DNA of 64,000 bases from a virus. Lineage: Duplodnaviria; Caudoviricetes. How positions within the stretch are numbered: the stretch's first letter is position 1; each line of letters starts with the position of its first letter. Positions 52,883-59,091 of the stretch are shown here, one piece after another. Location of the stretch: positions 32,001 through 96,000 of the IMG/VR virus record IMGVR_UViG_3300037312_000330. One strand, given 5' to 3'. Under the pieces are notes generated by a model, which did no database searches, had not been told where the DNA came from, and saw only the letters and a program-made list of their open reading frames with translations. The position numbers were made by a program, and so were the translations under genes.

Positions 52883-53659
52883 ATGGGAAAGCTGTTTGAA
52901 CTTCTGGCCGCAGAAAAGACGCTGTCTGCTGCTGCGGATAAATTGATCACCGAAACGAAGGCCAAGTTCCAGAAGGCCGACACCTACTTCAAGGGTCACA
53001 TCAAGACTCTGAAGATGCTGGAAAGCAAGCCGGAGAATGAGGCCATTGAGAACGCGGCCCGCGACGAGAAGACTATTAGCACGAACGTGGTCGATACGCT
53101 CCAGTACACACTGGATCATTGGGCTAAAGCGGAAGACTGCATCTTCCAGAAGAACTGCACCAACCAGACCGCTACTGCTGACCTTGAGTACCGTGGCACC
53201 TGCATCAGGACCGGCGTTCCAGTCGATGAACTTATGGGTCTTGAGAACCGCCTGAAGGATCTGCGCGGTATGATTCAAGAAATGCCTACCCTGGACGCAT
53301 CCAAAGACTGGGAGCCGGATAGCACTCGCGGTGCCGGATACTGGAAAGCGAAGAACCAGGAAGTCACAACCAAGACCGAGAAGCAGATGACCCCGGTCGT
53401 GCTGTACGCAGCCACCGACAAACATCCGGCGCAAGTCAAGGAAGTATCGAAGGATGTAGTGATCGGATCGTTCACGCAACTGTTCTTCTCAGGTGCTGGC
53501 ACAACCGTTGGCAAGTCAGAAGCTATCAAGGCTATCGACGACATGATCGTCGAATGCCGCAAGGCACGAAATCGCGCGAACACGGTCGAGACCGTGAACG
53601 CAAACATCGGGTCCACAATCGTGAGCCTGATCATGCAAGAGATTGTTCGTGTAGCCTAA
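52883..53659 (+). CDS. Conserved phage protein, DUF7873-like (family recalled from memory)
   Basis: KLFELLAAEK; GVPVDELMGLE; MPTLD; ATDKHPAQV; FSGA; KARNRAN; strong codon bias. Confidence 0.7.
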   Translation: MGKLFELLAAEKTLSAAADKLITETKAKFQKADTYFKGHIKTLKMLESKPENEAIENAARDEKTISTNVVDTLQYTLDHWAKAEDCIFQKNCTNQTATADLEYRGTCIRTGVPVDELMGLENRLKDLRGMIQEMPTLDASKDWEPDSTRGAGYWKAKNQEVTTKTEKQMTPVVLYAATDKHPAQVKEVSKDVVIGSFTQLFFSGAGTTVGKSEAIKAIDDMIVECRKARNRANTVETVNANIGSTIVSLIMQEIVRVA

Positions 53660-53669
53660 ATTGCTACAC

Positions 53670-53866
53670 GATGTGAAGGTTTGGCAACCGTTGTCGTTGT
53701 AATCTAGGGGCGATTGATGGTTCGAATCCATCCCCTCGCGCTGAGCGCATTCATTCAGAGTGCATTGAGCGCGAGGGTGGCAGAACTTGGATATTGCGCC
53801 AGCCGCGAAGCTGGGCCCCGACAGAGTTAACGTCATCATCATCGTTACGCCAAACATCATTCACAT
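53670..53866 (+). ncRNA. Circularly permuted tRNA-like RNA 1 (class II-like; YrlA-like topology)
   Basis: T-arm 53716-53732 precedes D-arm 53780+; acceptor CCCTCGC/GCGAGGG closed by a hairpin; 5' and 3' ends pair. Confidence 0.75.
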
Positions 53867-53876
53867 GAGGTTCGCA

Positions 53877-54065
53877 AGTCTGTAGTCCTTGGCGATGATC
53901 CGGCCGTCATACATAGTTGGCCGGAACTATACAACTCGAGACGCTGGTTCGATTCCAGCCCCGCGATCCAAAGCGCATTCCAAAGAGTGTTCTTTGGTCG
54001 CGGGTAGCTTAGCGGTAGAGCGTGAGTCTATACATCATCTTCATCCAAACCACGCCAGTGTAGAC
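53877..54065 (+). ncRNA. Circularly permuted tRNA-like RNA 2 (encoded CCA; YrlA-like topology)
   Basis: T-arm 53943-53959, CCCGCGA-T-CCA, linker, TCGCGGG, D-arm; anticodon stem TGAGT/ACTCG. Confidence 0.75.
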
Positions 54066-54224
54066 ACGCAGCTTGTGATGTGACTTGACAGTCCGGAGTT
54101 CGGTGCCGATATTTGGGTATAAATTTCTGCACCGATCTCTCTCTTAATTGCATTTCAGACAGTGCCATTAAGAGAGATCTATTACGGTCGTTAGTTTGAT
54201 AGCCCAACGCCAACAGGAAATAAT

Positions 54225-55067: not shown

Positions 55068-55144
55068 CGGGGTGTAGCTCAGTCCGGTAGAGTTCATGCT
55101 TTGGGAGCATGCTGTCGCAGGTTCGAATCCTGTCGCCCCGACCA
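55068..55144 (+). tRNA. tRNA-Pro(TGG)
   Basis: Cloverleaf, CCA. Confidence 0.92.
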
Positions 55145-55161
55145 TCACAACAGGAGATAGT

Positions 55162-55611
55162 ATGGCTATACGTAGGATCTTAGCAGGCAACGAAGACAAG
55201 ACGTTGTACGAGCGCCTCGGTGGCGTCTTTGCTATCGCTGCTGTGGTAAACGACTTCAGCGATGCTATCTTGAAGAATCCTGTAGTTGGAACCAAATCAA
55301 AGAACGAAGCACTTCGCAAATGGTCGAACGATCAACTGGACAGACTCCCAGGACTAAAGTGGATGCGCACTTTGTGGGTGTGTGACGCTACAGGTGGTCC
55401 TTATGAATATCATGCGACAGTTCCAGGATCAAACAAGATGGATCTGAGTGCTGCGCACAGAAAGTTCCACATTACAAGCGAAGAATTTGATGCTGTCGCT
55501 GACGTACTGTCCAAGACACTTGACAAGTTCAAAGTGCCAAAGAAAGAGAAAGATGAAGTGCTAGCTGCGTTCGCGGCACACAAGAAGGAAGTGACTGGTT
55601 CTGCTTCCTGA
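55162..55611 (+). CDS. Group I truncated (2/2) haemoglobin
   Basis: TLYERLGG..AI.AVV..F; TGGPYEY; AAHRKFHITSEEFDAV (proximal His). Confidence 0.9.
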   Translation: MAIRRILAGNEDKTLYERLGGVFAIAAVVNDFSDAILKNPVVGTKSKNEALRKWSNDQLDRLPGLKWMRTLWVCDATGGPYEYHATVPGSNKMDLSAAHRKFHITSEEFDAVADVLSKTLDKFKVPKKEKDEVLAAFAAHKKEVTGSAS

Positions 55612-58243: not shown

Positions 58244-58347
58244 GGACCATTAGCGCAGTTGGTTAGCGCACGAACATGAAACGAGAGTACAGACCCTGCA
58301 AGCATCCTTTCAAGGGGTCACGGGTTCGAGTCCCGTATGGTCCGCCA
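58244..58347 (+). ncRNA. tRNA-Asp-like body lacking a normal anticodon arm (104 nt)
   Basis: Perfect acceptor, D and T arms with GCCA end; anticodon arm replaced by unrelated sequence. Confidence 0.7.
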
Positions 58348-58355
58348 GTTGTTGT

Positions 58356-58431
58356 TCCGTGGTAGCTCAGTAGGTAGAGCAAAGCACTGTTAATGCTTGG
58401 GTCGCTGGTTCGAGACCAGCCCACGGAGCCA
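58356..58431 (+). tRNA. tRNA-Asn(GTT)
   Basis: Cloverleaf, G73, CCA. Confidence 0.92.
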
Positions 58432-58458
58432 TACTCAGTAAGCGCATTCGAGGTTTGT

Positions 58459-59091
58459 ATGGACTTCAGTGTGGAGACAGCAACTGGAAAGAGGACGATC
58501 AGTATCGTTCTTCCAGACAGGCCGTATGGAGTTTTGGTGTCAGGTGGCTTGGATAGCTCGGTGCTACTATCGCTAATCCTGATGACTCGTGCCAAAGAGA
58601 ACAGCACAGTTCCATTCACTGCCTTTAACATAAAGCGTGGTGTAGGAACAGAGCTTTTCTCTGAGAAGATGATGTGGTGGACAAGTGTCTACTTCAAGCA
58701 GGAATTCCCATTCCAACATTTGGAACTTCCTCCAGATACTCCACATTACGACTGTCTACGCATTCCTGGTGTATCACTTTTGAACGGTGGAAAAGTAGCC
58801 TGTCTGTTCTCAGCCGATACTTCTAACCCTCCAGGGTTTGTCCATCATCAAGCTCCAGAACGAACCCCTGTTGAGAAGCAGTTCAGCTTCCCACGGTGGC
58901 GTCTTCCGTTTCTGCACTGTGACAAGAGCCACATCGTACAATTGATGTACGACTTGAGACTCACGTTTATAGAACATCTGTCGCACACTTGCTTTGCGCA
59001 GAACATCTATAGATGTGGCAAGTGTTTCCAGTGCATGGAACGTGCGTGGGCATACAGCACTACTGGAAACTTGGACAGCGGAATACATTGA
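58459..59091 (+). CDS. QueC-like N-type ATP pyrophosphatase
   Basis: VLVSGGLDSS PP-loop; SHTC...CGKCFQC Zn motif. Confidence 0.8.
   Translation: MDFSVETATGKRTISIVLPDRPYGVLVSGGLDSSVLLSLILMTRAKENSTVPFTAFNIKRGVGTELFSEKMMWWTSVYFKQEFPFQHLELPPDTPHYDCLRIPGVSLLNGGKVACLFSADTSNPPGFVHHQAPERTPVEKQFSFPRWRLPFLHCDKSHIVQLMYDLRLTFIEHLSHTCFAQNIYRCGKCFQCMERAWAYSTTGNLDSGIH

What the first reader, a model, noticed from the sequence alone, without database searches (positions are those of the whole stretch)
53877..54065. Permuted RNA 2: opened in the anticodon loop, with duplicated loop sequence and masked CCA
Seen: CCCGCGA-T-CCA (53960-53970) pairs with TGG-TCGCGGG (53995-54004), so the encoded CCA is sequestered as in two-piece tmRNA precursors. 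The anticodon stem is TGAGT (54023)/ACTCG (53934). The 7-mer CTATACA occurs on both sides of the break (53927-53933 and 54028-54034), exactly where an anticodon loop would lie. Inference: excising the linker would give a two-piece tRNA; cleavage and ligation at the repeat could yield a circular or reconstituted tRNA. Permuted tRNA genes are established in red algae and archaea; I do not know of any in phages.
Basis: partly seen in the sequence, partly recalled or inferred. Interest (0 to 1): 0.75.

Follow-up and report, generated by a model that had tools for sequence, protein, structure and literature searches.

The report
Phage tRNA-mimic RNA, permuted order
This stretch of a jumbo phage encodes a folded RNA whose tip is a complete tRNA body written in rearranged order. 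It is one of a pair found after the same unknown gene in phages of very different bacteria, so it is a conserved tRNA mimic rather than a broken or re-joinable tRNA gene.

Summary
Every base-level observation is correct. The T arm, the 7-bp acceptor stem, U73-CCA paired to UGG, the D arm, the ACTCG/TGAGT closing stem and the two CTATACA copies all lie at the stated coordinates.

The element is real and conserved. A covariance model finds it (42-92 bits) directly downstream of a DUF7873 gene, and a strict pattern scan finds it in 38 of 41 phage loci. These include Ralstonia phiRSL1, Klebsiella FBKp24, and Rhizobium, Vibrio, Arthrobacter, Gordonia, Rhodococcus and Pseudanabaena phages. All 21 base pairs show compensatory changes.

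The reading as a permuted tRNA to be re-joined at a duplicated anticodon loop is not supported:
- The 7-mer repeat is private to this phage.
- The flanks continue into a long outer stem.
- No ligase or splicing endonuclease gene was found in the genome.

The architecture is that of YrlA-type bacterial Y RNAs. It fails the YrlA membership tests: no Ro60 gene, no Ro-binding motif, and a score below the Rfam cutoff. The cap hairpin resembles the intervening hairpin of betaproteobacterial two-piece tmRNA genes.

N73-CCA directly after the acceptor strand is conserved in 23 of 50 distinct caps.

I found no description of this RNA family. Other notes of this scan flagged the same locus.

The parts
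53861..54083 (+). Whole predicted RNA 2: a long imperfect outer stem carrying the tRNA-like head. The ends are not mapped.
   Evidence: RNAfold MFE -84.4 kcal/mol, z -3.1; the 5' flank pairs with the 3' flank. Outer stems are predicted in nearly all homologues.
53934..54027 (+). Permuted tRNA-like core: closing stem, variable region, T arm, capped acceptor stem, D arm.
   Evidence: R1 91.8 bits. Covariation in all 4 helices. Rfam YrlA-like alignment.
53934..53938 (+). Closing stem, 3' strand equivalent (ACTCG). It pairs with 54023-54027.
   Evidence: Helix 1 has 5 of 5 pairs with double changes.
53943..53959 (+). T arm (GCTGG TTCGATT CCAGC).
   Evidence: 100% paired in 22 homologues.
53960..53966 (+). 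Acceptor 3' strand (CCCGCGA).
   Evidence: The 7-bp helix is 100% paired, with all 7 pairs covarying.
53967..53997 (+). 31-nt cap: discriminator U73, CCA (53968-53970), inner hairpin GCAUUC-CAAA-GAGUG, and UGG (53995-53997) masking the CCA. Predicted RNase P cut between 53997 and 53998.
   Evidence: beta_tmRNA model positions 86-150, 39.8 bits. Same design in Rhodocyclales tmRNA genes and in Klebsiella phage FBKp24. The cleavage itself is inferred.
53998..54004 (+). Acceptor 5' strand (TCGCGGG).
54005..54022 (+). U8 A9, D arm (GCTT AGCGGTA GAGC) and G26. The tertiary-contact residues U8, A14, G18 G19 and G15/C48 are present.
   Evidence: D helix 91% paired, with 4 of 4 pairs covarying.
54023..54027 (+). 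Closing stem, 5' strand equivalent (TGAGT).
53927..53933 (+). CTATACA, copy 1, on the 5' side of the closing stem.
   Evidence: The repeat is specific to this phage.
54028..54034 (+). CTATACA, copy 2, on the 3' side of the closing stem.
53899..53925 (+). Side hairpin (CCGGCC / 13-nt loop / GGCCGG) just 5' of the head. Equivalent hairpins occur in phiRSL1, L007 and FBKp24.
53692..53823 (+). Partner RNA 1: a second permuted tRNA-like module with a similar cap and no CCA.
   Evidence: R1 29.6 bits.
52883..53659 (+). DUF7873 gene, the conserved upstream neighbour of the RNA pair.
   Evidence: Pfam PF25283, E 2e-66. Synteny in 38 of 41 loci.

Best explanation
Window 53861-54083 (+) encodes a structured non-coding RNA of about 220 nt. 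Its tip (53934-54027) is a complete tRNA elbow and acceptor domain written in permuted order: closing stem, variable region, T arm, a 7-bp acceptor stem capped by a hairpin, D arm, then back to the closing stem. There is no anticodon arm; a long imperfect stem formed by the flanks takes its place. This is the architecture of YrlA-type bacterial Y RNAs, which are tRNA mimics.

The RNA is the second of a tandem pair that follows a DUF7873 gene. The gene-plus-RNA unit is conserved in phages of Proteobacteria, Actinobacteria and Cyanobacteria.

Most likely mechanism (inferred):
1. The pair is transcribed with or just after DUF7873.
2. In members with CCA, such as this one, host RNase P cuts at the 5' side of the acceptor 5' strand (53997/53998).
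3. The rest of the cap is trimmed back to U73-CCA (53970). This leaves a nicked, two-piece tRNA-like head held together by its helices.
4. The head engages proteins that recognise the tRNA elbow and acceptor end, possibly as an RNP with DUF7873. It does not decode codons.
For: Structure:
- R1 hits of 42-92 bits in 22 distinct metagenomic loci.
- 43-81 bits in isolates: phiRSL1, FBKp24, Mimi, TM30, D520, Pam2, Phendrix, Keelan and NiceHouse.
- All 21 pairs covary; covariation score 0.92 against 0.25 for shuffles.

Synteny:
- 38 of 41 DUF7873 loci carry at least one module and 21 carry two.
- The own genome holds modules only at this locus.

YrlA-like architecture:
- The YrlA model aligns closing stem, T arm, capped acceptor and D arm at E 4e-4 here.
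- It is the steady best non-tRNA hit in isolates, at 32-38 bits.

Processing:
- The acceptor stem is 7 bp in every homologue.
- N73-CCA opens 23 of 50 distinct caps, where about 0.8 is expected, including 7-13-nt unpaired caps.
- M. smegmatis YrlA, which has a 7-bp stem, is cut by RNase P in vivo and in vitro and gains CCA (PMC4201824).
- Real two-piece tmRNA genes have the same masked-end hairpin.

Outer stems are predicted in nearly all homologues.
Against: - No expression or end-mapping data exist: no RNA run was listed for this phage or for phiRSL1.
- About half of the caps lack CCA, and some clades have 5-9-nt caps that may never be cut. Processing is therefore not a family-wide property.
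- Here, pairing of nucleotide -1 with the CCA could hinder RNase P.
- The link to DUF7873 rests on synteny only. Its good AlphaFold model (pLDDT 88.5) matches no known fold.
- Outer-stem z-scores against shuffles are modest.
Confidence: 0.6

Rival explanations
1. It is a closed tRNA mimic that is never cut. The cap stays intact, as in Salmonella YrlA, and the CCA is read as part of a loop or helix by a binding partner.
For: - The CCA is base-paired here and in several clades.
- Salmonella YrlA and D. radiodurans Yrn1 are not cut (PMC4201824).
- Clades with 5-9-nt caps lacking CCA keep the same fold.
Against: - CCA is kept at exactly the tRNA position even in short unpaired caps.
- All stems are 7 bp, which is the RNase P determinant named in PMC4201824.
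- Two-piece tmRNA precursors of the same design are processed.
Confidence: 0.2
2. It is a true YrlA orthologue that works with the host's Ro60 (Rsr) protein as a Y RNA.
For: - The architecture matches, and YrlA is the best Rfam resemblance.
- Rhizobium phage TM30 carries a TROVE gene about 6 kb from its DUF7873.
Against: - No TROVE gene in this phage or in 9 other complete or near-complete relatives.
- The GNCGAAN0-1G motif occurs in 2 of 33 loci, with 1 expected.
- Scores of 29-38 bits lie far under the gathering score of 69.
- The conserved neighbour is DUF7873, not rsr.
Confidence: 0.1
3. It is a degenerate or novel two-piece (permuted) tmRNA that rescues ribosomes.
For: - beta_tmRNA model positions 86-150 match at E 8e-11.
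- The cap matches the Rhodocyclales tmRNA intervening hairpin.
- Relatives encode tmRNAs, two of them permuted.
Against: - A canonical D stem replaces the tmRNA D-loop.
- Position 3:70 is G-C, not G-U.
- ARAGORN finds no tmRNA or tag, and the Rfam match stops at the acceptor stem.
- No conserved reading frame or pseudoknot was seen.
- There are two copies per locus.
- L013, L027 and L032 carry a separate tmRNA as well as the modules.
- The phage has no SmpB.
Confidence: 0.05
4. One reading: a permuted tRNA gene whose ends are cut within the two CTATACA copies and ligated. This would give a circle or a normal-order tRNA with a 7-nt anticodon loop.
For: - The 7-mer abuts both strands of the closing stem exactly (about 0.001 by shuffling).
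- The loop would carry U33.
Against: - The repeat is absent from 22 of 25 homologues, including the closest.
- The L026 repeat would give a 16-nt loop.
- Position 37 would be C.
- No RtcB, Rnl2, Rnl1 or EndA hit (the Rnl1 search is uninformative because its control also found nothing).
- There is no bulge-helix-bulge motif.
- The flanks form stems.
Confidence: 0.03
5. It is debris from a tandem tRNA duplication and deletion, with no function.
For: A duplicated loop sequence at both breakpoints is what a duplication-plus-deletion origin would leave.
Against: Compensatory changes in every helix and conserved synteny persist down to about 28% protein identity and across three host phyla.
Confidence: 0.02

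Closest known systems
YrlA-type bacterial Y RNAs (Rfam RF02553; Chen et al. 2014, PMC4201824), especially M. smegmatis YrlA
   Same: - Same order of elements: closing stem, T arm, acceptor-like stem closed by a loop, D arm, all set on a long stem.
- M. smegmatis YrlA has a 7-bp acceptor stem, is cut by RNase P and ends in CCA as two pieces.
- It comes with a second Y RNA (YrlB) from one precursor.
- It is also found in some phages.
   Different: - No Ro60/TROVE gene in 10 of 11 genomes.
- No GNCGAAN0-1G motif.
- Below the Rfam cutoff.
- The conserved neighbour is DUF7873.
- CCA is often encoded rather than added.
- The caps can be long hairpins.
Two-piece tmRNA from permuted genes (betaproteobacterial type, Rfam RF01850)
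   Same: - The acceptor piece lies before the 5' acceptor strand.
- The 3' end is masked by pairing.
- The cap design is nearly the same, CC(A/C)AAG-GCAUUC-N4-GAGUG-UUUGG.
   Different: - It has a true D stem.
- There is no tag frame, resume codon or pseudoknots.
- There is no G3:U70.
- Two copies occur per locus, and they coexist with real tmRNA genes in relatives.
Permuted tRNA genes of Cyanidioschyzon merolae and split or permuted archaeal tRNAs
   Same: The 3' half is encoded upstream of the 5' half on one transcript, and a linker joins the acceptor ends.
   Different: - Those yield decoding tRNAs through a bulge-helix-bulge cut and ligation.
- Here there is no anticodon loop, no such motif and no endonuclease or ligase gene, and the flanks form a rod.

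Membership tests
YrlA (RF02553) | tRNA-like domain in the order closing stem, T arm, acceptor-like stem-loop, D arm | tested here: met
   cmscan alignment; covariation in 4 helices.
YrlA (RF02553) | Score at or above the Rfam gathering score (69 bits) | tested here: not met
   29.3 bits here, 32-38 bits in isolates, and no hit at gathering in 17 loci.
YrlA (RF02553) | Encoded within about 4 kb of, and on the same strand as, a Ro60/TROVE gene | tested here: not met
   No TROVE gene in the own genome. It is absent from 9 of the 10 other genomes searched.
YrlA (RF02553) | GNCGAAN0-1G Ro-binding motif near the 5' end | tested here: not met
   Absent here. Found in 2 of 33 homologues, with 1 expected.
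Two-piece tmRNA | Permuted order with a masked, encoded 3' CC(A) | tested here: met
Two-piece tmRNA | Tag reading frame with a resume codon, and pseudoknots | tested here: not met
   ARAGORN finds none. The Rfam match covers model positions 86-150 only. RF00023 gives nothing above cutoff in the genome.
Two-piece tmRNA | tRNA-like domain without a D stem, and G3:U70 for alanylation | tested here: not met
   A 4-bp D stem that covaries. Position 3:70 is G-C. Real tmRNA genes continue with TACTGGTTTCGACAGGG.
Permuted tRNA gene (decoding tRNA after re-joining) | 3' half upstream of the 5' half, with matching acceptor strands | tested here: met
Permuted tRNA gene (decoding tRNA after re-joining) | Conserved anticodon stem plus a 7-nt loop that can be reconstituted at the junction | tested here: not met
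   The stem is conserved. The flanking repeat is present only here, and the joined loop would carry C37.
Permuted tRNA gene (decoding tRNA after re-joining) | Junction-processing machinery (bulge-helix-bulge motif and endonuclease, RNA ligase) | tested here: not met
   No EndA, RtcB or Rnl2 in the phage. The Rnl1 search is uninformative. Host enzymes were not testable.
Permuted tRNA gene (decoding tRNA after re-joining) | Circular or re-joined RNA product | not testable with these tools
   No RNA runs were listed.

The most novel reading that the evidence does not exclude
DUF7873 and the two RNAs form a phage ribonucleoprotein. In it, nicked, CCA-ended tRNA mimics (one tRNA-Leu-like, one class I-like) act on the host tRNA machinery. 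They could be decoys for defence toxins that attack tRNA acceptor ends, or aminoacylated adaptors used outside normal decoding. This would be a Ro-independent, phage-specific counterpart of Y RNA particles. The cap hairpin it shares with betaproteobacterial two-piece tmRNA would point to a common processing signal or to gene exchange between the two.
Probability: 0.2. Interest if true: 0.85.

Novelty: new variant of a known kind. Interest (0 to 1): 0.62.

Why it matters
A strongly covarying, unannotated pair of RNAs sits in a 400-500-nt 'empty' gap of many sequenced phages. Several are culturable models: phiRSL1, Klebsiella jumbo phages and SEA-PHAGES actinophages.

It extends tRNA mimicry of the YrlA kind to phages that lack Ro60. 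It gives DUF7873 a testable RNA context.

It offers a natural series, running from closed 5-nt caps to CCA-bearing masked caps, for asking when a tRNA mimic is opened by RNase P.

It also explains at least one probable mis-annotation: the 'tRNA-Sup-TTA' in FBKp24.

Tried and rejected
- ARAGORN and Rfam at gathering score call nothing here.
- blastn against phage records found nothing for the RNA region.
- The DUF7873 model gave no informative match. Foldseek against PDB had no hit at E <= 0.001. VIA-align wide gave only generic helical bundles, Z <= 9.6. AFDB clusters gave only uncharacterised relatives. PHROGs gave none.
- Literature searches for DUF7873 and for permuted tRNA in bacteriophages found no description. 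A 2026 preprint on three tRNA-mimic families, judged from its abstract and outline, concerns other RNAs.
- No sigma-70-like promoter or intrinsic terminator lies between the DUF7873 stop codon and the RNAs.
- No RNA sequencing run could be listed for this phage or for phiRSL1.
- The degenerate genome-wide pattern scan mostly hit ordinary tRNAs. Only the Rhodocyclales tmRNA genes were informative.
- A reading frame in the 3' arm (for example ASVDTQLVM*) was considered as a tmRNA tag. It was dropped because it is unconserved and atypical.
- ORF 53889-54083 (64 aa, TTG start) overlaps the RNA. It was dismissed because the region evolves by compensatory base-pair changes.

Full report
**Observation.**
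- T arm at 53943-53959.
- Acceptor 3' strand CCCGCGA at 53960-53966, then U at 53967 and CCA at 53968-53970.
- UGG at 53995-53997 and acceptor 5' strand TCGCGGG at 53998-54004.
- A canonical D arm at 54005-54022.
- TGAGT at 54023-54027, pairing ACTCG at 53934-53938.
- CTATACA on both outer sides of that stem (53927-53933 and 54028-54034).

RNAfold pairs CCAAAG with CUUUGG, so the CCA is masked. It also pairs the 5' flank with the 3' flank in a long outer stem (MFE -84.4 kcal/mol, z -3.1). The residues that build a tRNA elbow are all present: U8, A14, G18 G19, G15/C48, G53-C61, T54 Psi55 C56 and A58. ARAGORN and Rfam at gathering score call nothing here.

**Context.** The window is part of a 248,884-bp phage record judged complete, from a rhizosphere metagenome. 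It is related to Ralstonia phage phiRSL1. The element lies 275 nt after a 258-aa gene that is a full-length DUF7873 (PF25283, E 2e-66). It follows a first, similar module at 53692-53823 and lies just upstream of a GroES gene and a 13-tRNA array.

**Conservation.** DUF7873 homologues were fetched from 32 viral contigs (29-54% identity) and from isolate phages.
- A strict pattern scan looked for a T arm, then a 7-nt strand, then its perfect complement within 100 nt, then a D arm. It finds at least one module within 1 kb downstream of the gene in 38 of 41 loci, and two modules in 21.
- Covariance model R1 was built from 11 copies. It scores 22 distinct metagenomic copies at 42-92 bits.
- R1 also scores isolate copies:

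| Phage | Score (bits) |
|---|---|
| Ralstonia phiRSL1 | 81 |
| Klebsiella FBKp24 | 63 |
| Arthrobacter Mimi | 60 and 52 |
| Rhizobium TM30 | 52 |
| Vibrio D520 | 58 |
| Gordonia Phendrix | 54 and 49 |
| Rhodococcus NiceHouse | 49 |
| Gordonia Keelan | 48 |
| Pseudanabaena Pam2 | 43 |

- In every annotated record examined (phiRSL1, FBKp24, Mimi, TM30), the RNAs lie in an unannotated 400-500-nt gap. In the five further isolate records the R1 hits also fall in unannotated DNA or under small hypothetical ORFs downstream of the gene. FBKp24 carries a 'tRNA-Sup-TTA' call that borrows the module's T arm and is probably spurious.
- On the 22-sequence alignment, 92.6% of cells are paired and all 21 pairs show changes on both sides. 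The covariation score is 0.92, against 0.25 for shuffles (0 of 500 reach it) and 0.18 or less when partners are slid.
- That alignment was fitted to the model, which favours pairing. The independent anchor-based extraction shows the same compensatory stems.
- The own genome holds modules only at this locus.

**What it is not: a re-joinable permuted tRNA.** The repeat that suggested a split anticodon loop is absent from 22 of 25 homologues. It is missing even from the closest ones, L001 and phiRSL1. The one other 7-mer repeat (L026) would give a 16-nt loop. The joined loop here would read C-U-A-U-A-C-A, with a pyrimidine at position 37. With the head replaced by a tetraloop, the flanks fold onto each other in nearly all homologues. 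In the L027-L031 clade the second stem visibly covaries. The phage has no RtcB, Rnl2-type ligase, splicing endonuclease or CCA-adding enzyme. The Rnl1 search was uninformative because its control also found nothing.

**What it is not: a tmRNA.** ARAGORN finds no tag. The Rfam beta_tmRNA match covers only the T arm, acceptor stem and cap (model positions 86-150). The D stem is canonical and covaries. Position 3:70 is G-C. Relatives L013, L027 and L032 carry a separate tmRNA in addition to the modules. No SmpB is encoded.

**What it resembles.** The Rfam YrlA model aligns closing stem, T arm, capped acceptor and D arm here (29.3 bits, E 4e-4). It is the steady sub-threshold hit in isolates (32-38 bits against a gathering score of 69).

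Chen et al. 2014 (PMC4201824) define YrlA by three features: this tRNA-like domain, a GNCGAAN0-1G motif, and a position within 4 kb of rsr on the same strand. They also show that M. smegmatis YrlA, the one with a 7-bp stem, is cut by RNase P in vitro and in vivo and carries CCA on its 5' half.

The two other defining features fail here. No TROVE gene occurs in this phage or in 9 of 10 other complete or near-complete genomes that carry the system. The motif occurs in 2 of 33 loci, with 1 expected. So the RNA works like a YrlA in architecture but is not a member of that family.

**Cap and CCA.** N73-CCA directly follows the acceptor 3' strand in 23 of 50 distinct caps, where about 0.8 is expected. 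This includes short unpaired caps such as CCCACAAACACAC and the 7-nt caps of Gordonia phage Phendrix. Masking by UGG is seen here and in L005/L006, L014, FBKp24 and Vibrio D520, but not generally.

The inner hairpin GCAUUC-N4-GAGUG, flanked by CCAAAG/CUUUGG, recurs in RNA 1 and in FBKp24. The same design occurs in genuine Rhodocyclales two-piece tmRNA genes: Thauera, Ferribacterium, Azonexus and Dechloromonas. This explains the beta_tmRNA hit.

**Mechanism.**

Shown:
- A conserved four-helix tRNA-like head on a rod.
- A 7-bp acceptor stem in all copies.
- Frequent encoded CCA.
- Tight synteny with DUF7873.

Inferred:
- Transcription with or just after DUF7873. No promoter-like or terminator-like site lies between them.
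- RNase P cleavage at 53997/53998 and trimming to CCA at 53970, giving a nicked two-piece head.
- Action as a tRNA mimic, possibly bound by DUF7873.

DUF7873 folds confidently (pLDDT 88.5) into a helical bundle with long beta hairpins. It matches no solved or named fold. No RNA data could be found to test expression or ends.

**Novelty and verdict.** I found no paper or Rfam family describing these RNAs or DUF7873. The kind is known: a tRNA mimic with a permuted tRNA-like domain, sometimes opened into two pieces. The Ro-independent, DUF7873-linked, paired and often CCA-encoding phage version appears to be new. Other first-stage notes of this scan flagged the same locus. I tested their DUF7873 link and the shared cap hairpin and confirm both.

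Noticed in passing
window 53692-53823: Partner RNA 1 has the same permuted design plus an extra hairpin (CCAGC/GCTGG) before the closing stem GGGGC/GCCCC. In relatives its D arm best matches phage tRNA-Leu genes (15-17 of 21). A73 is kept in most copies, and several isolates carry ACCA.
   Followed up: partly
L059 (Thauera), L061 (Ferribacterium), L067 (Azonexus), L077 (Dechloromonas) versus window 53967-53997: The intervening hairpin of real betaproteobacterial two-piece tmRNA genes has nearly the same sequence design as the phage cap (CCCAAG-GGCAUUC-N4-GAGUG-UUUGG). This could reflect a shared processing signal or gene exchange.
   Followed up: partly
L027:7505-7839, L032:7184-7510, L013:6505-6895: ARAGORN calls permuted (two-piece) tmRNA genes on two phage contigs and a standard tmRNA (Rfam 114 bits) on a third. 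All lie 2-3 kb from the DUF7873 locus.
   Followed up: no
about 50-100 nt 5' of the module 2 core in 13 of 33 loci; window 53847-53853 (CATCGTT): A short (U/C)AUCG(U/C) motif recurs between the two modules, and sometimes 3' of them, across distant phage lineages. It is a candidate protein-binding or processing site.
   Followed up: partly
L039 2518-2597 (MW394391.1 46041-46120): The 'tRNA-Sup-TTA' annotated in Klebsiella phage FBKp24 uses the side hairpin as an anticodon arm and borrows the T arm of module 2. It is probably a mis-call of the permuted RNA.
   Followed up: partly
window 58244-58344; L003 5566-5689 (= L038 3066-3189, phiRSL1): The Rfam tRNA model hits 101-nt and 124-nt stretches (45 and 41 bits) that ARAGORN does not call. 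These may be tRNA-like genes with a large insertion.
   Followed up: no
L042/L043 (Rhizobium phage RHph_TM30, record 140589-141332): This is the only examined phage carrying the system that also encodes a TROVE/Ro60-like protein (529-aa frame). It lies about 6 kb downstream of its DUF7873.
   Followed up: no
window 54131-54188: A long near-perfect hairpin (GATCTCTCTCTTAAT...ATTAAGAGAGATC) lies between RNA 2 and the GroES gene, with sigma-70-like hexamers at 54085-54113 and 54196-54224.
   Followed up: no
window 55096-55611 and 58393-59091: Within the tRNA array lie a bacterial-like globin (PF01152, E 9e-9) and a protein with a QueC-like C-terminus.
   Followed up: no
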